Positions 3,097 to 28,679 of a DNA stretch of 64,000 nucleotides are shown here, piece after piece. The DNA is from the human T2T-CHM13v2.0 reference genome, Homo sapiens: NCBI RefSeq assembly GCF_009914755.1, contig NC_060927.1. The stretch is one strand, 5' to 3'. A program made the translations under genes and the position numbers. The notes under the pieces were generated by a model. The model searched no databases and was not told the DNA's origin. It worked only from the letters and a program-made list of their open reading frames with translations. Every line of letters begins with the position of its first letter. Within the stretch, counting starts at the first letter, position 1.

Positions 3097-3221
3097 ATGG
3101 CCCAACCTCAGCTGTATCTACCAGAACCCTTTAAGATTGCCTACAGAAAAGTTGGACAGTGCCGAAGATTCCAGCAACTCAAGAAGAAAAATGGCTCATT
3201 CAAAAGGAAGGGGATAGAAAG
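3097..3221 (+). CDS. C3orf49: C3orf49 coding exon 1 (MAQPQLYLPEPFKIAYRKVGQCRRFQQLKKKNGSFKRKGIE-R)
   Basis: ATG at 3097 in good Kozak context (gcaATGG); open frame to donor AG|GTAACA at 3222; 125 nt, phase 2 joins exon 2 in frame; N-terminus matches my recollection of C3orf49. Confidence 0.9.
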
Positions 3222-5074
3222 GTAACAGAGATTCATTTCCTTTTCTGTCAAATGAGAGTCTTTGGGTTTGGCATAGTGGCATGTCCTTTTAAGCATTGCA
3301 TTTAGGAATGAGGACTCTGGATGGATTGGCGGGGAGGGTACTGCGTTGGATCAAGAAATCTAGTGTGACAATGTAAGCTTCATTTTATGATCAGAAACAT
3401 CTTAATTGTAACAGGGAAAACCTTTCCTTTCCACTCGAAATTAAGTTTCAATGTGGCATAGGAGACTAAAATAAGTTCTGATCCTATGTTGATATTTCAG
3501 CATCAGAATTTTGGACATCTCACATCCCGTGAAAATACTATTATTTTGAAAAGTCATTAGTGCATTCTTCGAAATAGGTCCACGATCAGTGCTTTCTTTC
3601 TCCTATCCCAGCAATTTGGGCTGCTGAAATATGTACTAATCACATTTCACTATGGACACATTGTTTAATGTAACGTTAAAACTGCCTTAGACTTGCTATT
3701 TTTTTGCCAATGACAAAACCATATAGACAGGTATGAAACATCCAAAATATAATATATTTTAATTTGGAAAGTCAGTGTGGTGATTTATTTTCCAATTTCT
3801 TTGGGCTTCTCTCTTACCAGGTCCATGGGCTATAGTTCAGACATGTAGAAGTGAGGTGTTTTAATGAGTCCTGGAAGCATCAAAGACCAAGCTTGTGAAC
3901 TTCCATGGACAAAATAAAATACTGCAGAGATTTCCACTTTCAATGAAAAGTAGGCACTCCGGGGGAAGCAATACAACCAAATAAATTCAGTACCAACACA
4001 AAAATATTTAAAAACTTAAGAAGGGGAGGGTTCTGCTCATATCAGAAATTGCAGCAGTGTGTTCCTAGGCTCTGGAGCTAAATCACCTTTGTTAATTATG
4101 TTCTAGATAGATTGGGGATGAGAGTGGGGAGGATGGGAATGGGAAACACCTTCTAGAGATTCTGAGACCACTTAGAACTGGGCTTTTAACATGGGTGGTC
4201 TTCAAAATTCCTGAATCTCCTGAAACTGTATTTGCATTGTTCTGTGTCACAGTATGTGTATGTGTGTACATGTTTATAGTAGTAGAATCACTTAAAAATT
4301 AAATTATTATTAAAGGAGTCTCAGAGGGGTCTACGGGAGATTAATCCTACCCATAAGTTATCTCTGGGTGAATTAGGAAATGGTGCTCCCTCCTCAGGAC
4401 ATTTTACTGCCATCTGCCAGAAAATCATTATAATAACTATACACAAGTCTAAGGATGAAATTGAATAGCACCCCCTAGAAGTCATATATGTACATTTTGC
4501 AGAACCCTGCCCTTGGTCCCAGAAGGGAGGCTGCTAGCTTCTCCCTTATTTTGCCCTCTAGTGTGGGCTCCCTGCTTGCCTTTTAAGTTAATGGATTTTC
4601 CCCATAAGTTAATGGCTTTTCCCCACTGTTCTGATCCACATGGTAATAAAAAGTATCATTTATGGAATGCTTTTTAAGGTTCCAAACACATGAATTATTT
4701 CCTTTTATTTTCATAATTCTGAAAAGATTATGCCCATTTTCAAATGAGAAGACCAAAGCTTATAGAGGTTACATGACATGCCCAAGGTCACAGAGTTAGG
4801 AATTGTCCTGAGTTAAACCAATACCATTCAACTCCAGTGTCTAGGCTGTCACTGAACCACTTCCCATATATAATTACAGAAAAAGGCTGAATGATTTGGG
4901 TTCTGTTTAGAACAGTGTTTTCCTGGAGAGTAGTACATATGCTACTGATGGTACATGAGATATTTTAGGTAATATATGAAGAACATTGTTAATGGTTATA
5001 AATTTGTTTTAATCCATATTAGAAATATATGTTATATATTTAATACAACGTAATAGCATAATATAAAACCTGGG

Positions 5075-5970
<896 letters not shown>

Positions 5971-6874
5971 CACCGAAATTTCATGGATATTATTACTTTG
6001 GGTGAAGCTAACAAAAAATAGTTAATTGAGGAAGAATATTAGGTAATAATTGTATCACCGTACAGGTGATACTCTAGCACAGTGGTGAACAACACAGACC
6101 TCAGGATCAGATAATCTGGACATAAATTATTTAATCTCTCCAAGCTTTAATTTCTTCATGTGTGAAGTAGAGATGAGAATATAAAGATTAAATTATGTTA
6201 TACACATGAAAGCACTTGGAAGAGTGTTTAGCACACAGAAAGCTATCAGGAAATGTTGTCTATTGTTTAGTCTATTGTGTATAATAAAATATGCCAAAAT
6301 TATGAAGATGGTACACGTAGTCACTATATATGAGTTTACAGTATGTTATCTAAATGAGTGTTTTATGTAAATGCAGTATTTATGGGGCCTTGGAGGTTAC
6401 TCCTTATTGACTACCCTAGCAGACTCTCTCATCTTTTATTACTTTCACTTTGAAACTGCCAAATCTAGCAAAAACTATGTCAAACTATCATTGAAATAAG
6501 ATTGCCAATTTGCCAATATAAGTTAATGGATTCCAACAGTCAGACCTGGATTAAAGTCTGCATTCAGCCCTTGGTCAATTAATTTAAACCATGTCTCAGT
6601 TTACTCATAAGTAAAATGAAGACAATAATATAACCTACCTCTAACAGTACTGTGTTTAAATTAAATAGCAGCCAGATTACTATAATTTGGTAACAAAACA
6701 CCAAGTAGTTGCTTTGGCTTTATTTTTCTGTGATTTGATTCTTGGTCTTCAATTTCATTTTTTTTTTCTGAATTGTATAATTGGTTCACATTTGAAGTTT
6801 GTGTTTTAATGATTTAAATTTTTCACTTTTAACTTTTCAGTTTCCCTAATATGAACCATTTTTATTTTGTTTAG

Positions 6875-7194
6875 ATGGCATAGAGCTGTGTCTACCAACT
6901 TACTAAAACAAAATGTATTGGTCCCTAAAGAGGAATCATCCAGTGATAGTGACATGGGATTTCATGAAAGCCAGCAAAATCAGAAAAGTAATTTGAAGAC
7001 GAAAGTGAAGACTGCTTTTGGGAGGATGCTGTCCTACAAGTATAGAAGCAAGCCAGCATGTGCCAGCCAAGAGGGCTCCACTGACCATAAAGAAGCCCTC
7101 CTGTCAAACACGCAGAGCCTTCTCCCTAGGATTGTCAAGGAGTTTTCATCTCCCAAGTTATTTACAGCAAAAATGAGAAAGCTCTCAGAGAATG
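6875..7194 (+). CDS. C3orf49: C3orf49 coding exon 2 (WHRAVSTNLLKQNV...KMRKLSEN)
   Basis: T-rich acceptor tttgtttag| at 6874; lies within ORF 6867..7289; donor G|GTAATC at 7195; 320 nt, phases consistent. Confidence 0.92.
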
Positions 7195-7390
7195 GTAATC
7201 ATATTTGGGCAATTTGTCTTTGGGTTGAGGCCAAGAGGAAGAGTGAAATTAGGATGGATTATCTTGCTACACCAGTATGGCATCCCTGAGGAGCTTGTCT
7301 GAAATGCAGAATCTCAGGCCCTACCTGGGACCTTCTGAGTGAGAAGCCACACTTTAGCAAGATCCTCAGTTGGCTTGTATGTTCATACCG

Positions 7391-7391
<1 letters not shown>

Positions 7392-7443
<52 letters not shown>
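7392..7443 (+). repeat. (TG)26 microsatellite at the tail of a - strand Alu (7445-7715), itself inside a MER5
   Basis: Counted directly; tcatacc direct repeats flank the Alu plus repeat. Confidence 0.92.
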
Positions 7444-7446
<3 letters not shown>

Positions 7447-8164
7447 AGATGGAATCTCGCTCTATCACCCAGGCTGTAGTGCAGAGGCATGATCTCGGCT
7501 CACTGCAACCTCTGCCTTCCGGGTTCAAGCAATTTTCCTCCCTCAGCCACCTGAGTAGCTCGAACTACAGGAGCGTGCCACCACACCCAGCTAAATTTTG
7601 TATTTTTACTAGAGATGGGGTTTTACCATATTGGCCAGGCTGGTCTTGAACTCCTGACTTCAGGTGATCCGTTCGCCTCGGCCTCCCAAAGTGCTGGGAT
7701 TACAGGTGTGAGCCTTGCTCATACCTTTTGAGAAGCACTGAATTGGATTGCCTTGGAGGTTCCTTCCAGTTCAATTAAACAGTGTTCTAATCAGTTTAAA
7801 GTCACTTTTTATTTAAATATATATGTGTGTATATATTCATATATACATATATATATTTATTGGAAAATCAAACTCAAGGGGGATTTTTGGTTTTGTTTCT
7901 GGAAAAAGTAGTGATGCAGACTTTCACATGGCTACTTCTAACAGTGGAGGGGGTAGTGAGACTTAAATGAATAAAATGTATAACTGGTAAGTCATAAAGA
8001 ATGCTCACTTTTATTGCATTTACTTTCTATGTACTGTGTGAAAGAATTAATATTTGAACTGTTAACTTTAAGTCGTTTTTGCAACTAGTATTAATGCCAT
8101 GTGGCATCCTATGAGTCATGACTAACAATACTACCAATGTTTGCATTCTCATCTGTGGCTTTTA

Positions 8165-8495
<331 letters not shown>

Positions 8496-9329
8496 CTATT
8501 TTTATAGCACTTTTATATTTACAGAAAAATTGAACAGAAAATGTAGAGTTCCCATATATGCCCTCCCTTCCCTGATCCCCACAGCTCCTGTTATTAACAT
8601 CTTGCTTTAGAGTGGTACATTTACAATCGATGAACCAATATTGATATATTACTATTATTAACTGAAGTTATAGTTTACATTAGGGTTCCCCCTTTATATT
8701 GTGCAGTTCTGTGGGATTTGACAAATACCTACTTTTATGTCATACTCTGTCATAACATACATCCACCATACATCCACCATAATTTCACTGCTCTATATAT
8801 CCTCTGTAGCTTTTTAATGTCCTTCACAGCACAGAATCAGGAAACACACAGCCCTTCTAGTATATGTAAATATACATACAACCTCACATTTTACACACCA
8901 TGATCAGGCAACAAAACTGATGTGTGCTTTTTCCAGGAAAAAAAAAACAAAAAAAAACCCTGATGGTTTCCAGCCGACTACTTTCAAACAAACTCTGTGT
9001 TCTGGAAAAAGCAGTCATTAATACAAGCATCCAAGCATCTAGCAATTACCTGGTATGGATTGAGCTGTATATTTCTGTTGAAAATAGCAAAGAGGACATG
9101 ATTCTATATTGCTGGGGCTGGAATTGAAGAATCCAGCAGAAAACAGAGGATCAAATTTCTACTCCTAATCTGTGCACTGGTTTATTTTTATCTTAGTTGG
9201 AATAACAAATATCAACTAAGATTTCTCCAGAAAACATGCTCATCCTTTAGGATGTAGCTCAAACATTAATACCCTTTGTTGTGGCCCCAAATCAGTTGCT
9301 CTTCCCTGCTGACCTTCAAAACATGTTTT

Positions 9330-10250
9330 TATCTATTTAACAAATATCTGCTAAGTACTTATTATATGACAGCCACAATATTTGGGATAGAGTAGCACAT
9401 AGAACAGACATAGTCCCTCCCTCATGGAGAGGCTTTCAAACATGCAGAAAATTACATTTGTTCCAAAGGAGCACAGGATGCTATTGAAAGAAATCATAGG
9501 TGCTCTAACTTTAGGGGAGGGGTCTCAGGAAAGGCTTCCCCAAGGAAGGGACAACTAAATTGAGATCTGAAGGATGTCTAAGACATAAAGATGGCTTACA
9601 CAAGGTGGAGGGGGGAGAACAGTTTCCCAGGAATAAGGGAGAGCATGTTCAAGTCACAATATCAAGAGATCACCAGGCACAATTAGGAAATGAAAGAAAT
9701 CCAGTGGAGGTTGGAACACAGAGAGCTAAGGGGAGGCTGGTTGAATTAGGTAGTAAGGGTGTCTGTCATAGGACACATTGAGAATTTTTAACTTTCTTCT
9801 AAGGGTGATAAGAAACCACTGGATACTTTCAAGCTGGGGATTTATATAATCTGATTTGCATTCTTAAAAGATAGCTTTGGTTATCTTTTAGTGTAGACTG
9901 GATTGGATGAGGGTAAGCGCAAATGCAGGAAGAACAATAAGCACCCATACATTCTTTCAGGCAAGGAATGACATTAGCTTGGATTAGTCAGGGCAGTGGG
10001 AATGGGGAGATAAAGGGAGAAATAAGCATAGGTAGAAGTTACAAGAGTTGGGGAAGAGTTGGACAGTGAAGGGTTGGGGAGAGGGAAAAATTTCTGGATT
10101 GAGCACTGGCTTTGAAGGTGGAGGCATCATTCACTAATATAAGGAGCAATGGACCTGGATTGAAAAATAAGTCATGAGTTCTGGCTAGACTTGCTGACAT
10201 AAGGTCCCTGCCAAATAGCCAAGTGGAAGTGTCAAGTAGGCTAATGTATT
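9330..10250 (-). mobile_element. Degenerate L2
   Basis: Typical L2 antisense purine-rich segments (caaatatctgctaagtac..., gaaaggcttccc..., tgatttgcattcttaaaagat). Confidence 0.6.
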
Positions 10251-10419
10251 CATTGAGGTCTGAGGCTCCCAGAGAAGTCCTTATCAATGGACTTTAAGCA
10301 ACAAGATGATTTTAGGTGTGCACACTGCATGAAGAACAGTGTAACACACAGCAAATTGCAAACACCCTTTCCCCAATGCTGTCATCCTTTTGAATACATC
10401 AAGGAAAATGTCTCATTTA

Positions 10420-10671
<252 letters not shown>

Positions 10672-11227
10672 TTACCATACTAGTCTTAAATTTATGGTAG
10701 TGTTTTAAAGTTTCCTTTATAAATACATTTATGGAGTTAAGCACTGAATTGATATGTTTTAAAATGTTAAGGAATCCAAAGTTCACCTGGCTCCTGGATA
10801 TAGGAAAGACAAATCAATGGTATGTAAATGACTGAGCCTTGAGCCACATTTCTCGAAAATAGATAGAAAATTTGCTTTAATCCACAATGAATACCCAAGG
10901 GAGGGCCTTGCATGTTAGAGGGTTACTTTTCTAATTCCACAATGGTTCAGGGGAAAAACTTAAATCTCGAAGAGAGAGAGAGGTGGCTACCTTGTCAAAG
11001 ACTGGGTTGGTGTCCACTGAGGTCATGACCATAACAAAAGGCAAATGCGTGCAGGAGAAAGTGTAAGATTGGGAAGAGCAAATCAATTTTTTATTCTTAA
11101 CTCTAAAGAAAAAAAAAGCCACTGAAGCAGCAAGTGATGCTGTCTTCTAAGAATACTGTATTTTTAACAGGAAGAATGTGTTCCTCATTGTGATCCTTAC
11201 AGATTCCTTTTTCCCCCTTTCTTGAAG

Positions 11228-11352
11228 CGACTATACAACTTGATGTTGTAGAGGCAGAGACAGAGGAGATAACCCAGGGAAACACACTCCTTCGGGCCAG
11301 GAGAACCACCAAGCGGTTATCTGTGACATCTCTTCCTTCAGGACTGCAAAAG
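11228..11352 (+). CDS. C3orf49: C3orf49 coding exon 3 (ATIQLDVVEAETEEITQGNTLLRARRTTKRLSVTSLPSGLQK)
   Basis: Polypyrimidine acceptor ttcccccttTcttgaag|; donor AAG|GTAAAA; 125 nt restores phase 0. Confidence 0.9.
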
Positions 11353-11669
11353 GTAAAACGCTAAATGAATTTGCCTCTGAAGACTTACACATAACTCAAT
11401 GTCTAGAGATTTTGCAAAAACCAAGTTCTGTCCTACCATGAGTCCTCCACAATAAGCCCTTTAAATCTGCTGCTTCTGTCTCCTCTCCAAGAATTTAGGG
11501 TACTCTCTGGGTCAGATTCTTCTACTTCTAAGCTCAAACTGTTCAGCTTCTACTACATCTGGGCAACAGTGGATGGAGTTTGGATTTTTATAACTGACTT
11601 TCTCACTCTTCAAATGTTAGTATATTAGCATTCTGGCCTATCTGTGCATACTATGTGGAGTGGAACTCA

Positions 11670-12740
<1,071 letters not shown>

Positions 12741-13289
12741 CACCACTGTCAGAGTGCACTGATACTAGTTTTGAAGTTTTGCCTTTTGTGTGCTAGGTTC
12801 GTATTCATTTTGCCCCTATTATGTTTTAGGCAGTCTGTAGGTTTGGGGGGTATAGGGTGATCTAATGGACATGGTCTTGCTTCTGTGGAACTTACAGTCA
12901 AATAGAGGAGATAGACATTAAACCATAGCACCATACAGCAGTGGGGTAAGGATAATCTTTTGAACAAATGTTGCTAGAACAATTGGGCATTCATACAGAA
13001 AAAAAATGAAAATTGACCCCTATCTCACACCATATACAAAGATTAATTTCTGTTCAGTTATAGATTTAAGTGGAAAAGGCAAAAATCTTAAAACTCCTGG
13101 AGGACAATAAGAATATCTTCATGACTTCAGGATAGAGAAACACTTCTTAGGACACACATAACAATAATCATAAAGATAAAGATGGAGCAATTTGGCTATG
13201 ATTAAGAATTTCTGTCCATCAAATGGTGTTAGATCAGAGGTTGTCAACTAGCTATAAAAATGTTTTGTTTAGCCCTCAGAATGTTCTCA

Positions 13290-13595
<306 letters not shown>

Positions 13596-14736
13596 ATATA
13601 TATATGTATTTGAATTAATTGTCTACGTTTAGAAATTAGGATATTTCTAATACAATTCTGGGTTTTCTACTTTCTCTTGAAAAATAAAAAGATTTGAAAA
13701 TACTAGGCCAATTCCTCATGGCAACAAACAGGAGCTGCGCCAGGGTACTGCAGAAGGTGTGGTCTCTTCAGTCCATACCAGCCCCAACTAGTCCTGCTTT
13801 ACAAAACTTGCCTAGGCACTAGATTTTACCATAGTTGTATTCAATAAACACAGACATAATGTAGTGACTGCCAAGTATGCTAGTATGCTAGTTGCTTAAC
13901 AGGAAAAAGTACTGGGTTTTATGAAAGAGAAAAAAGAGGGGTCTTACTTTAGATAGATCAGGGAAGATTCTGCAAGTGACATTTGAGCTGGGCAAGCTGG
14001 CAGGGTAGCAGTGGTTCAGCAGACTCCATTTGTAAAGGCAAAAGGTAGGACCCAGATGTGGTCCCATATCCTACTTTGTGTAGGTCTCACAATAGTCCTA
14101 ATGCTAATTATTAAGCACAAGGGGAAGGAAGAGTAAACTCAGTAAGACTAAAAAGGGCATATTAGCTGGGAGCCATGACCTGGGAATGATTTCCAATTGC
14201 AACACTGTTAGGACAGGTACTTGTAACCAGTAAGCCAGGGACAATGGGAAAAGTATCAGGCATGGGGTGAAAAGAACCCAGAGCTTTCTTTTTATGTTTG
14301 AAGACGTGACTGCCGTGAAAATAAGGAAACCTGCAGAAACGAGACCAAATTAACAACTAGATCCACGATAATGAGCTTTCTGGGGCACTGGTCCACAACG
14401 GCCCCACACTCTTACTGTGCTCAGCAGCTGCAGAGGCAATTTCTTCTTCTTCCCCTTACGAATGACCTGCTTTTTTCCTGATGCTGTATATTCTTTCAGA
14501 GCCAGACAATCTCATTTCTCTGTACCCTATAGATCTCTTCAAAGAGAGCTCTGGGCACAAAGAAGATACTTGGGGTGTGGAGAATAATATGAATACAGTC
14601 TGCAATCCAATATTGTTATGTGGCAAATGTTCAGTTTATAAGATAATGTCCTAAGGGTGAGAACTCTTGTTTAAGCACCATCACATAAATAATGTTGGTA
14701 GTTCCTAATCTGATGTGTTTTGCATTTTTACCATAG

Positions 14737-14850
14737 GGGCCATATTCACCAAAAAAGAGACCACACTTTCCAGCACTTAAAAAAAAGAAGCGTGGCATGG
14801 AAAACATCCTTCGAAAATCAGATTTGACAGTAGGAAAGCTTCAAATGCAG
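14737..14850 (+). CDS. C3orf49: C3orf49 coding exon 4 (GPYSPKKRPHFPALKKKKRGMENILRKSDLTVGKLQMQ)
   Basis: Acceptor tttttaccatag|; donor CAG|GTAGTG; 114 nt, phase 0-0. Confidence 0.9.
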
Positions 14851-15306
14851 GTAGTGGACAAAGGCTTTTAACTTTTGAGTCTCAGAAGCATCAGAGAGCC
14901 AGGCTTAAGTAAACGCACAGCCCTGCTAGACAGCATGGGTGTGGGATGAAATTAATGATTAGCATTAAGAAATAATGTTAGCAGGGGGGCATTCTGAAAG
15001 TGGCTAAAGGATTGCCAAGGACACCTAGGATGATGCTGTGTACCTGATAAATGTTAAATGAATTCAGTTAAAATGAAGGCATATACATAGGTTTCTTTTC
15101 AGAAGAACTGAGATTGTCTTTATCACTGGGTGGTAAATGTATGCTTTCAAGCTCCATTTGCTATGACTTGAATTAGAATAATATTTTAAGACTTGCAAAA
15201 TGTCCGCCAGTTCCAGAACTCTTCTCTCAGGAAAAGCAACTATCCCTTTGATTTTGACAAGGCTTTCCAACACATGGCTTCATTTCTTTGTATTTATCTG
15301 TCATAG

Positions 15307-15504
15307 GTGGATGACCTCATAGAAACAGTGACTGATAAATCCATGAAGCTACTGGCCCAAAGACATGCTGAGCTTCAACAGTGTGAGTTTCTGGGGGATG
15401 AAATTCTTCAGTCTTCTAAACAGTTCCAGAGGATATCCAAGAGAACCATGAGGAAGTATAAATTAAAAAATGTGTGTTTCCCATGTACCTGCTGCTGCTT
15501 CTGA
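15307..15504 (+). CDS. C3orf49: C3orf49 coding exon 5, read-through form ending ...KYKLKNVCFPCTCCCF* (total 293 aa); R-SNARE-like coiled coil
   Basis: Acceptor tttatctgtcatag| at 15306; ORF 15307..15504; summed exons 882 nt = 293 aa + stop; internal donor AAT|GTGTGT after 15471 for the alternative form. Confidence 0.85.
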   Translation: MDDLIETVTDKSMKLLAQRHAELQQCEFLGDEILQSSKQFQRISKRTMRKYKLKNVCFPCTCCCF

Positions 15505-15539
15505 CTTTGTTCCTGATTCTTTAAAAGTTATCTTCCCTA

Positions 15540-15895
<356 letters not shown>

Positions 15896-28649: not shown

Positions 28650-28679
28650 ATGACCACAAAAGGACCTGGAGACAGCTGA
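28650..28679 (+). CDS. C3orf49: Alternative last coding exon of C3orf49 (MTTKGPGDS*), ERV-derived; gives a 292-aa isoform when spliced from 15471
   Basis: Acceptor aattttgtctcttgacag| at 28649; 283 + 9 codons = 292 aa, matching the length and ending I recall for annotated C3orf49; possible weak donor AAG|GTGATG after 28709. Confidence 0.7.
   Translation: MTTKGPGDS

What the first reader, a model, noticed from the sequence alone, without database searches (positions are those of the whole stretch)
14830..15504. C3orf49 looks like an unrecognised, lipid-anchored R-SNARE (synaptobrevin/VAMP-like)
Seen: the spliced C-terminus reads LQMQVDDLIETVTDKSMKLLAQRHAELQQCEFLGDEILQSSKQFQRISKRTMRKYKLKNVCFPCTCCCF*. 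Known: the VAMP2 SNARE motif (from memory) is [59 protein letters not shown]. The two align with a single one-residue insertion. QVD is shared, the zero-layer Arg is R247 (codon 15361-15363), and layers +1 to +7 are L,C,G,I,S,F,S versus L,L,A,L,A,F,A. The QF pair and the juxtamembrane RKYxxKN motif are in register. Where VAMPs have a TM helix, this form has five Cys ending in CCCF-COOH, a CaaX-like box with nearby palmitoylatable Cys, as in the lipid-anchored R-SNARE Ykt6. Inference: C3orf49 may be a divergent fusogenic or inhibitory (amisyn/tomosyn-like) R-SNARE with a long basic, low-complexity N-terminus. I cannot check whether domain databases already flag this.
Basis: partly seen in the sequence, partly recalled or inferred. 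Interest (0 to 1): 0.85.

Follow-up and report, generated by a model that had tools for sequence, protein, structure and literature searches.

The report
C3orf49 is a divergent, cysteine-anchored R-SNARE
The uncharacterised human gene C3orf49 ends in a helix that is a genuine but unusual relative of the synaptobrevin/VAMP vesicle-fusion proteins, followed by a cluster of cysteines instead of a membrane-spanning segment; it is conserved from lamprey to human, so it may be an overlooked part of the cell's membrane-fusion machinery.

Summary

The VAMP likeness is real homology. A family profile against six human VAMP motifs gives hhalign probability 97.2%, P 3e-11, score 56.9. By comparison, 498 heptad-preserving shuffles reach at most 20.7 and Q-SNARE profiles reach at most 15.5. 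Synaptobrevin is the top Pfam hit in 10 of 10 orthologs, but only 1 of 10 passes the curated cut-off; the ape sequence, 98% identical to human in this part, scores 19.4 against 26.4.

The family runs from lamprey to human, with Arg in 109 of 112 distinct cores.

Two points need correcting:
- The tail is not a CaaX box: 0 of 66 distinct tails fit a strict one and 32 end in Cys. It looks like the Cys-cluster tails of the two single-exon syntaxins.
- It is not wholly unrecognised. Three orthologs carry an automatic V-SNARE name and 8 of 120 a precomputed Synaptobrevin domain. No paper links the gene to SNAREs.

A one-residue skip at the zero layer is conserved family-wide. A four-helix model with a syntaxin and SNAP-23 scored 0.83, best control 0.22.

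The parts
3097..14829 (+). Coding exons for the N-terminal ~221 residues (3097-3221, 6875-7194, 11228-11352, 14737-14829). The region is basic and predicted to be disordered. It holds family-wide conserved blocks: RWHRAVSTNL (3220-3221 + 6875-6902), ATIQLDVVEAETEE (7194 + 11228-11268), RARRTTKRLSVTSLPSGLQK (11293-11352) and a basic run (14752-14796).
   Evidence: CDS joined and translated. AlphaFold2 pLDDT is mostly below 60 for residues 1-207. In 211 residues K+R = 47 against D+E = 17.
14830..14850 (+). Start of the SNARE motif in exon 4 (V222-Q228; layers -7 and -6 are V222 and L225).
   Evidence: heptad and hydrophobicity profile; hhalign alignment.
15307..15447 (+). Rest of the SNARE motif in exon 5 (V229-T275). 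Layers -5 to -1 are V229, L232, V236, K239, L243. Layer 0 is R247. Layers +1 to +8 are L251, C254, G258, I261, S265, F268, S272, T275.
   Evidence: Exon 5 starts in phase 0. Pfam PF00957 match. PDB profile search. hhalign. Core positions are the most conserved.
15358..15363 (+). Q246-R247: the zero-layer Arg plus the one extra residue ('QR' where VAMPs have 'R'), which puts the two halves of the heptad pattern one residue out of phase.
   Evidence: The gap is placed here by HMMER and hhalign. The V229-to-R247 spacing was the same in the divergent members I read. The hydrophobic phase shifts by one residue between the halves. R in 109 and K in 3 of 112; Q246 in 106 of 112.
15451..15471 (+). Brevin-type juxtamembrane motif RKYKLKN (R277-N283), ending at the optional splice donor AAT|GTGTGT (15471|15472).
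   Evidence: In register with RKYWWKN/RKFWWKN of VAMP2/VAMP8. Donor context.
15472..15504 (+). Cys-cluster tail VCFPCTCCCF plus the stop codon; it takes the place of a TM helix and is the likely S-acylation anchor.
   Evidence: Cys-cluster tail in 142 of 161 members; 66 distinct tails carry 3-7 Cys. The 12 divergent members fetched whole all end in a Cys cluster with no TM segment.
15505..15885 (+). 3' UTR of the read-through (Cys-tail) transcript; it contains a masked repeat (15538-15849) and AATAAA hexamers near its end.
   Evidence: Hub annotation (other-transcript exon 15307-15885; masked stretch); hexamers read.
28650..28679 (+). Alternative terminal coding exon of the RefSeq-selected transcript (MTTKGPGDS*). 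It replaces the Cys tail and so gives an anchor-less isoform.
   Evidence: Among the 161 family members held, this tail occurs only in two Old World monkey models.

Best explanation
C3orf49 encodes a vertebrate-wide, divergent brevin-type R-SNARE. About 207 basic, disordered residues lead into a single helix of about 75 residues. That helix carries a SNARE motif with Arg at the zero layer, a VAMP-like C-terminal half and the RKY..KN linker. It runs directly into a cluster of about five cysteines instead of a TM helix.

Shown here: homology to synaptobrevins; conservation of the layer residues and of the Cys cluster from lamprey to human; and a conserved one-residue skip at the zero layer.

Inferred: the Cys cluster is multiply S-acylated and holds the protein on a membrane. 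There the helix zippers with a Qa and a Qbc (or Qa, Qb and Qc) SNARE into a four-helix bundle, with the brevin-like C-terminal half and linker pulling on the lipid anchor. The skip would make N- and C-terminal zippering two separable steps.

I favour a specialised, regulated v-SNARE. The anchor-less splice form would act as a soluble competitor.
For: - Profile against profile. The family core (24 sequences) against 6 human VAMP motifs gives probability 97.2%, P 3e-11, score 56.9 over 65 columns. Against VAMP8, VAMP5 and VAMP4 alone it gives 96.9%. The best single paralogue is VAMP8, at 96.6% and P 5.7e-10.
- Controls. 200 column shuffles reach at most 17.5 and 498 heptad-preserving shuffles at most 20.7. 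Reversed profiles score 14.2 and 15.5. Qa, Qb and Qc profiles score 15.5, 10.5 and 15.0, all at 2% probability or less.
- Pfam. PF00957 is the top hit in 10 of 10 orthologs (E 2.7e-6 to 0.041) and matches 21 of 24 diverse members. No other family matches more than 2 of 24.
- Reverse search. The family profile against PDB sequences gives 8 VAMP8 or VAMP2 chains among 11 hits at E<=1, best E 0.019.
- Conservation. R247 in 109 of 112 distinct cores, L251 in 112, C254 in 110, G258 in 112, S265 in 110, F268 in 109. Mean entropy is 0.78 bits at a/d positions, 1.11 at e/g and 1.36 at b/c/f, permutation p 0.008.
- Range. Lamprey, chimaera, sharks and rays, bowfin, gars, sturgeons, eels, amphibians and mammals.
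- Fold. A single helix spanning 208-282, with 10-residue block means of pLDDT 86-96 over residues 221-270.
- Anchor analogy. The two single-exon syntaxins of the same genome end in Cys clusters directly after KN-P. A paper's title states that S-acylation is required for syntaxin 11 function (PMC4049605, title and start of abstract seen in the listing).
- Complex model with the syntaxin-11-like Qa motif and the two SNAP-23 helices. Score 0.83 against a best of 3 controls of 0.22. That mark was reached by 51 of 78 solved complexes and 2 of 108 mismatched pairs. The runs agree in at least 96% of contacts and the partner's pLDDT is at least 83. The interface runs from 221 to 282, with same-layer pairs such as Qa 252 with 261, 256 with 265, 259 with 268 and 263 with 272.
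Against: - The ape ortholog used for the full-length tests (98% identical to the human exon-5 peptide) is below Pfam's curated cut-off, at 19.4 against 26.4 bits. Only 1 of 10 orthologs scanned passes.
- Single-sequence phmmer of the exon-5 peptide against the PDB finds no VAMP at E<=10.
- The heptad pattern is interrupted by one extra residue, which canonical SNARE motifs do not have.
- Three of the 112 cores have Lys at the zero layer.
- Layer +8 is Thr.
- Over-expressed C3orf49 went to nucleoli in a 2023 preprint (10.1101/2023.03.09.531820, passages read). The isoform and tag were not visible in those passages.
- The human RefSeq-selected transcript lacks the Cys tail.
- The complex pass may reflect the model's memory of solved SNARE bundles. 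It shows likeness, not binding, and the job differed from the tool's calibration.
- Lipidation and membrane localisation are pure inference.
Confidence: 0.6

Rival explanations
1. It is a non-fusogenic, inhibitory R-SNARE. It enters Q-SNARE complexes but, because of the lipid anchor (or, in the spliced isoform, no anchor) and the register skip, cannot complete fusion. It therefore clamps fusion or competes with TM-anchored VAMPs, working like tomosyn or amisyn.
For: - It rests on the same homology and complex evidence as the best explanation.
- Yeast Snc1 and Sso2 with a geranylgeranyl anchor in place of the TM domain assemble into SNARE complexes but dominantly inhibit fusion after docking (PMC2192637, abstract read).
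- The skip sits at the zero layer.
- Anchor-less splice forms that use the donor after ..KN are modelled in several species.
Against: - The best-conserved and most VAMP-like parts are the C-terminal layers and the linker that abuts the anchor, which are the force-transmitting parts.
- Syntaxin 11, also Cys-cluster anchored, is reported as required for function in NK cells, not as an inhibitor (PMC4049605, listing only).
- There is no specific sequence relation to the amisyn-like exon (hhalign 5.2%).
Confidence: 0.25
2. It is mainly a nuclear or nucleolar, RNA-associated basic disordered protein. The helix would be a SNARE-derived coiled coil now used for something else, such as oligomerisation, and the Cys cluster would bind metal or form disulfides.
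For: - Over-expressed C3orf49 targeted nucleoli and formed stress-cap-like assemblies after actinomycin D (10.1101/2023.03.09.531820, passages).
- The N-terminal 211 residues hold 47 K+R against 17 D+E.
- The selected human isoform has no Cys tail.
Against: - Conservation is highest at SNARE core positions.
- R-SNARE-specific small residues at +3, +5 and +7, and Phe at +6, are kept for the whole history of vertebrates.
- The Cys cluster sits exactly where VAMPs enter the membrane, and 142 of 161 members have it.
- In that preprint, cationic GFP variants partitioned into nucleoli in a charge-dependent way, so a highly basic over-expressed protein may go there by default (passage).
Confidence: 0.1
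3. The resemblance to VAMPs is a chance similarity between coiled coils.
For: Individual E-values are marginal: Pfam 0.003 for the human exon peptide, PDB profile hits 0.019-0.28, and no single-sequence phmmer hit. Atlas scores of 0.84 are in the range that shuffled proteins reach a third of the time.
Against: - hhalign P 3e-11, with 698 shuffles all at 20.7 or less against 56.9. This includes shuffles that keep the heptad periodicity, and no signal appears against Q-SNARE coiled coils.
- The alignment covers the full motif with Arg on Arg and the linker motif in register.
- Some orthologs pass the curated Pfam cut-off.
Confidence: 0.02

Closest known systems
VAMP8 (endobrevin) and VAMP1/2/3 (brevin-type R-SNAREs, Pfam PF00957)
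   Same: - Homologous SNARE motif, with Arg at layer 0.
- Small residues at +3, +5 and +7, and Phe at +6.
- RK[YF]..KN linker in register.
- As in VAMP1/2/3, the motif core lies in one exon with phase-0 boundaries.
   Different: - One extra residue at the zero layer.
- Cys cluster in place of a TM helix.
- A basic disordered N-terminus of about 220 residues.
- Exon boundaries offset by 3 codons (5') and 2 codons (3') from VAMP1/2/3.
- Separated by a 99/98-supported branch from all 8 human VAMP-type rows in the tree.
Syntaxin 11 and syntaxin 19 (single-exon Qa-SNAREs; the names are my reading of loci L034 and L035)
   Same: No TM helix. A Cys cluster directly follows the SNARE motif and a K/R-N residue pair. 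The syntaxin 11 cluster is reported to be S-acylated and required for function (PMC4049605, listing).
   Different: They are Q-SNAREs with a syntaxin N-terminal domain. There is no sequence relation to the C3orf49 core (hhalign 2.0%). This is an analogy of anchoring, not homology.
Ykt6 (lipid-anchored longin R-SNARE)
   Same: An R-SNARE without a TM helix, anchored by C-terminal cysteines (recalled knowledge).
   Different: Ykt6 has a longin domain and a true CaaX box (recalled). C3orf49 has neither: no longin hit in the Pfam scans and strict CaaX in 0 of 66 tails. The partial Ykt6 exon gave no hhalign signal, but it was too short to count.
Tomosyn and amisyn (regulatory R-SNARE-motif proteins)
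   Same: A C-terminal R-SNARE motif behind a large non-SNARE N-terminal part. The spliced human isoform, like them, has no anchor.
   Different: There is no specific similarity to the amisyn-like exon (5.2%). The conserved isoform carries a probable lipid anchor and a brevin-type linker, which those proteins lack (recalled).

Membership tests
Synaptobrevin / R-SNARE (Pfam PF00957) | Match to the family profile above the curated cut-off (26.4 bits) | tested here: inconclusive
   The ape ortholog, 98% identical to human in the exon-5 peptide, scores 19.4 bits and the human exon peptide 17.8, both below the cut-off. One of 10 orthologs scanned passes (27.6). PF00957 is still the top hit in 10 of 10 and matches 21 of 24 at E<=0.1. 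Precomputed PF00957.28 is on 8 of 120 listed members.
Synaptobrevin / R-SNARE (Pfam PF00957) | Homology to bona fide R-SNARE motifs by profile-profile comparison, specific against Q-SNAREs | tested here: met
   97.2%, P 3e-11, 65 columns. Q-SNARE profiles reach 2% or less. 698 shuffles score 20.7 or less against 56.9.
Synaptobrevin / R-SNARE (Pfam PF00957) | Arginine at the central (zero) layer | tested here: met
   R in 109 and K in 3 of 112 distinct cores; aligned to the VAMP Arg.
Synaptobrevin / R-SNARE (Pfam PF00957) | Sixteen uninterrupted heptad layers (-7 to +8) with no indel | tested here: not met
   There is one extra residue at Q246/R247 in the alignments. The hydrophobic phase of the N half is shifted by one residue relative to the C half.
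Synaptobrevin / R-SNARE (Pfam PF00957) | C-terminal TM helix after the linker | tested here: not met
   The tail is 8-16 residues with 3-7 Cys in 142 of 161 members. Only 3 aberrant models show a hydrophobic stretch.
Synaptobrevin / R-SNARE (Pfam PF00957) | Forms a parallel four-helix bundle with Qa, Qb and Qc motifs | tested here: inconclusive
   Prediction only: score 0.83 against a best control of 0.22. The mark was reached by 51 of 78 solved complexes and 2 of 108 mismatched pairs. The pass may stem from likeness to solved SNARE complexes.
CaaX-prenylated SNARE (Ykt6 type) | Conserved C-terminal CaaX box | tested here: not met
   Strict CaaX in 0 of 66 distinct tails; 32 of 66 end in Cys; the last residue is C, F, Y, L, W or S.
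CaaX-prenylated SNARE (Ykt6 type) | N-terminal longin domain | tested here: not met
   No longin family among the Pfam hits at E<=1 in 10 orthologs, or at E<=0.1 in 24 members. The N-terminus is predicted to be disordered.
Cys-cluster (S-acylated) SNAREs: syntaxin 11/19, SNAP-23/25 | Cluster of at least 3 Cys next to a SNARE motif and no TM helix | tested here: met
   142 of 161 members. Compare the tails of L034 and L035 and the invariant CCGLCVCPC-type cluster in 16 SNAP-23 sequences.
Cys-cluster (S-acylated) SNAREs: syntaxin 11/19, SNAP-23/25 | Cysteines actually S-acylated and needed for membrane binding | not testable with these tools
   Needs acyl-RAC or acyl-biotin exchange, and Cys-to-Ser localisation experiments.
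Tomosyn/amisyn-type soluble regulators | Specific sequence relation to their R-SNARE motif | tested here: not met
   hhalign against the amisyn-like exon gives 5.2%, score 16.2. A tomosyn-like exon was seen only as a weak hit and was not compared.

The most novel reading that the evidence does not exclude
C3orf49 is a functional extra human SNARE that inventories of the family have missed. It would be a vertebrate-specific R-SNARE, anchored by acylated cysteines, whose conserved one-residue skip at the ionic layer builds in a pause between N- and C-terminal zippering. That would make it a self-clamped, two-stage fusogen or a reversible membrane tether. It would be switched by palmitoylation cycles, by the conserved basic-kinase-like RR.S..VSVTSLP site, and by splicing to an anchor-less form. 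It would serve a specialised organelle, for example the vacuoles of notochordal cells, where it is listed among markers of nucleus-pulposus-dominant clusters (PMC10225674, passage).
Probability: 0.25. Interest if true: 0.88.

Novelty: new variant of a known kind. Interest (0 to 1): 0.74.

Why it matters
As I recall it, the human SNARE set has been treated as essentially complete for two decades. A further R-SNARE, conserved from lamprey to human and unstudied, would add a player to vesicle-fusion maps.

Its two departures bear on open questions about how zippering is staged and how much a lipid anchor can transmit force. These are a lipid-type Cys-cluster anchor on a brevin-type motif and a conserved register skip exactly at the zero layer. 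They offer a natural experiment on both questions.

There are practical consequences too. The human transcript chosen as reference encodes a tail that is not conserved and lacks the probable anchor. Expression constructs, antibodies and localisation studies built on it, possibly including the reported nucleolar localisation, may miss the conserved form.

The gene also lies in the THOC7/ATXN7 neighbourhood, and several of the papers listed that mention it are schizophrenia-locus, brain eQTL or association studies.

Tried and rejected
- Single-sequence phmmer of the exon-5 peptide against PDB sequences gave no VAMP at E<=10, only FAP210 at 6.4. The signal needs profiles.
- Intron-position test. 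I hoped the introns flanking the motif exon would coincide with those of a VAMP gene. They do not. VAMP1/2/3 boundaries are 3 codons (5') and 2 codons (3') away, the VAMP4 5' intron is 3 residues upstream in another phase, and VAMP8 and VAMP5 split the motif elsewhere. This says nothing either way about homology.
- The exhaustive profile search of 1.84 billion representatives gave 63 hits at E<=0.001. All hits fetched (26 of 63) were family members or fragments. No TM-bearing or VAMP-bridging relative appeared.
- Foldseek of the AlphaFold2 model against the PDB had a best E of 4.3 (vimentin). A lone helix is uninformative.
- The tree of motif sequences separates the family from the VAMPs but resolves no sister paralogue. 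The tool warned of long branches.
- L003, first taken as a full-length VAMP reference, is a VAMP5-like retrocopy and was dropped.
- The protein atlas gave Synaptobrevin-bearing clusters at ranks 1 and 3, but with scores of 0.84, so it is a lead only.
- Literature. 'Gm11100' gave 2 irrelevant papers. 'STX19 + S-acylation + SNARE' gave 1 irrelevant paper.
- The isoform and tag used in the nucleolar localisation experiment were not in the passages I read. bioRxiv supplements are closed, so its Table S2 may hold this.
- I could not name the lineage of several divergent representatives, including the three with Lys at the zero layer. No bird, reptile or non-eel teleost name appears among the 120 rows listed. 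Thirty-six further hits were not listed, so absence cannot be claimed.
Full report
**What is in the sequence.** Joining the annotated C3orf49 exons and reading exon 15307-15885 through gives a 293-residue protein. Exon 5 starts in phase 0, so window:15307-15501 translates directly to the last 65 residues. R247 is codon 15361-15363, and the finding's start, 14830, is the codon of V222. By the hub's gene table, the RefSeq-selected transcript instead uses a donor at 15471|15472 (AAT|GTGTGT) and a small exon at 28650. This replaces the Cys tail with MTTKGPGDS. AATAAA hexamers lie near the end of the read-through exon.

**Is the VAMP likeness real?** Taken singly, the scores are marginal:
- The exon peptide hits Pfam Synaptobrevin first among 24,736 families, but at E 0.003 and 17.8 bits against a cut-off of 26.4.
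- phmmer against PDB sequences finds no VAMP at all.

With relatives the picture sharpens:
- Synaptobrevin is the top family in 10 of 10 full-length orthologs. One of them, a tenrec, is above the cut-off.
- It matches 21 of 24 diverse members, while no other family matches more than 2.
- A profile of 24 orthologs searched against PDB sequences returns 11 sequences at E<=1. Eight are VAMP8 or VAMP2 chains. Each is aligned over the whole motif, with Arg on Arg and RKY..KN in register.

I then rebuilt the SNARE motifs of human VAMP1, 2, 3, 4, 5 and 8 from their exons in the same genome and ran hhalign:
- Probability 97.2%, P 3e-11, score 56.9 over 65 columns.
- 96.9% against VAMP8, VAMP5 and VAMP4 alone.
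- VAMP8 is the best single paralogue, at 96.6%.

Controls:
- 200 column shuffles reach at most 17.5.
- 200 and then 498 heptad-class-preserving shuffles reach at most 20.1 and 20.7.
- Reversed profiles score 14.2 and 15.5.
- Profiles of Qa (two syntaxins), Qb and Qc (16 SNAP-23 sequences) score 15.5, 10.5 and 15.0, all at 2% probability or less.
- The positive control, VAMP8/5/4 against VAMP1/2/3, scores 82.1.

The likeness is therefore specific to R-SNAREs and is not a coiled-coil artefact.

**The family.**
- The exon peptide finds 180 proteins at E<=0.01. The 120 listed all carry a precomputed Pfam family, PF28264, which the atlas names 'C3orf49'.
- The Cys-tail form is 100% identical over 65 residues in bats, a mole and an armadillo, and 77-85% identical in frogs and sturgeons.
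- An exhaustive profile search of 1.84 billion representatives finds only 63 proteins at E<=0.001.
- I read 26 of them. The 12 divergent members fetched whole all end in a Cys cluster with no TM segment. The other 14 are fragments or models with other or truncated tails.
- A profile of 13 divergent members puts names on the range: lamprey, chimaera, many sharks, skates and rays, bowfin, gars, sturgeons, eels, salamanders, caecilians, frogs, a monotreme, marsupials and placentals.
- Across 112 distinct cores the zero layer is R in 109 and K in 3. L251 and G258 never vary. C254 and S265 are kept in 110, and F268 in 109.
- In a tree, the 24 family rows sit on one side of a 99/98-supported branch against 8 human VAMP-type rows. 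No sister paralogue is resolved.

**Anatomy.** AlphaFold2 with the ortholog alignment gives disorder for residues 1-207 and a single helix spanning 208-282, with 10-residue block means of pLDDT 86-96 over residues 221-270. Within the helix, predicted a/d positions are the most conserved. Mean entropy is 0.78 bits, against 1.11 for e/g and 1.36 for b/c/f, permutation p 0.008.

The C-terminal half follows the VAMP layer pattern from R247. The N-terminal hydrophobic series (V222, L225, V229, L232, V236, K239, L243) is one residue out of phase with it. HMMER and hhalign place a single extra residue at Q246/R247. In the divergent members I read, the V229-to-R247 spacing is the same.

**The tail.**
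- Of 161 members held, 142 end in a Cys cluster. The other 19 are alternative-exon, truncated or run-on models.
- Among the 66 distinct Cys tails, 32 end in Cys, 21 in F, 5 in Y, 4 in L, 2 in W and 2 in S.
- None fits a strict CaaX with an aliphatic a2, and no longin domain is found. The Ykt6-like reading therefore fails.
- The same genome's two single-exon syntaxins, which I read as syntaxin 11 and 19, end in very similar Cys clusters directly after their SNARE motifs.
- SNAP-23 has its invariant Cys cluster.
- A paper's title states that S-acylation is required for syntaxin 11 function, and the start of its abstract says that syntaxin 11 binds SNAP23 (PMC4049605, listing only).

Multiple S-acylation is thus the likeliest anchor, by inference.

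**Complex test.** After eleven queue-full or too-early answers the one job ran. The chains were the syntaxin-11-like motif (194-273), SNAP-23 residues 7-78 and 141-211, and C3orf49 212-285 as the partner. The alignments were not used.
- The score was 0.83 in the median of three runs, against a best of 3 controls of 0.22.
- That mark was reached by 51 of 78 solved complexes and 2 of 108 mismatched pairs. The tool notes that these counts hold only roughly for a four-chain job.
- The runs agree in at least 96% of their contacts, and the partner's pLDDT is at least 83.
- The confident interface runs from residue 221 to 282. It includes same-layer pairs in the expected register: Qa 252 with 261, 256 with 265, 259 with 268, and 263 with 272.
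- Partner residues missing from the interface list are spaced by seven from 242 onward (242, 249, 256, 263, 270, 277). Further N-terminal they fall at 234 and 227, not at 235 and 228. I read this as the model absorbing the extra residue between about 235 and 241.
- Because many SNARE bundles are solved, the pass shows likeness to them. It does not show that this protein binds.

**Against the reading.**
- In a 2023 preprint, over-expressed C3orf49 targeted nucleoli (10.1101/2023.03.09.531820, passages). The isoform and tag were not in what I could read.
- In the same preprint, cationic GFP variants partitioned into nucleoli according to their charge.
- The N-terminus is very basic.
- Lipid-anchored versions of yeast SNAREs assemble into complexes but block fusion (PMC2192637, abstract). 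This keeps an inhibitory role alive.

**What is known.**
- Nineteen papers mention C3orf49, none in the title or abstract.
- None holds both C3orf49 and SNARE.
- One proteomics table lists the protein in an iPSC neuron and microglia model (PMC10350077, passage).
- One single-cell study lists the gene among markers of nucleus-pulposus-dominant clusters. It describes those genes as previously reported markers of notochordal cells (PMC10225674, passage).
- Databases partly flag the domain. Three orthologs have the automatic name 'V-SNARE coiled-coil homology domain-containing protein', and 8 of 120 listed members have a precomputed Synaptobrevin domain.

**Verdict.** The anchor claim is redirected from CaaX to a Cys cluster. 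The function is still inferred. C3orf49 is best described as a new subfamily of brevin-type R-SNAREs with an unusual anchor and a conserved register skip.

Noticed in passing
L008 (G000:C4:85649607-85649738, + strand): An isolated VAMP8-like exon on chromosome 4 scores 40 bits to Synaptobrevin and has Lys at the zero-layer position. Against PDB sequences it hits Nyv1 (3.6e-6) and VAMP8 (5.7e-6), with 19 hits at E<=0.01. No second exon turned up in the genome scan. It may be a relic or an unannotated R-SNARE-like exon.
   Followed up: partly
L003 (G000:C17:47579257-47579505, + strand): An intronless VAMP5-like open frame (111 aa from a GTG start) has His where the zero-layer Arg should be and keeps a hydrophobic C-terminal segment. 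It looks like a retrocopy.
   Followed up: partly
window 15471-15472 and 28650-28679: The RefSeq-selected human transcript drops the tail conserved across vertebrates in favour of MTTKGPGDS. Among the 161 family members held, only two Old World monkey models share this tail. Other species' models use the same donor after ..KN with unrelated tails (cat, seals, mole, gibbon, sawfish). An anchor-less isoform may therefore be recurrent, or these may be gene-model noise.
   Followed up: partly
P0131, P0137, P0146 (unnamed representatives): One sub-lineage of the family has Lys instead of Arg at the zero layer (..LLAQKHAEL..) and His-Phe-Pro at the start of the tail. Its taxon could not be named with the searches left.
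   Followed up: no
window 11293-11352: The block RARRTTKRLSVTSLPSGLQK (aa 171-190) in the disordered N-terminus is conserved down to cartilaginous fishes and lamprey (S180 and V181 at 90% or more; K190 nearly invariant). It looks like a basophilic-kinase phosphorylation site, which would suggest regulation.
   Followed up: no
window 15538-15849: A masked repeat fills most of the 3' UTR of the read-through transcript. Its start reads like an Alu (my reading). The A-rich end supplies AATAAA hexamers just upstream of the annotated transcript end.
   Followed up: no
L013 (G000:C14:19017240-19017389, - strand): An exon with an R-SNARE-like stretch (..NERGERL..), which I take to be the amisyn gene, scores 29.4 bits to Synaptobrevin. 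It served only as a comparison sequence.
   Followed up: no
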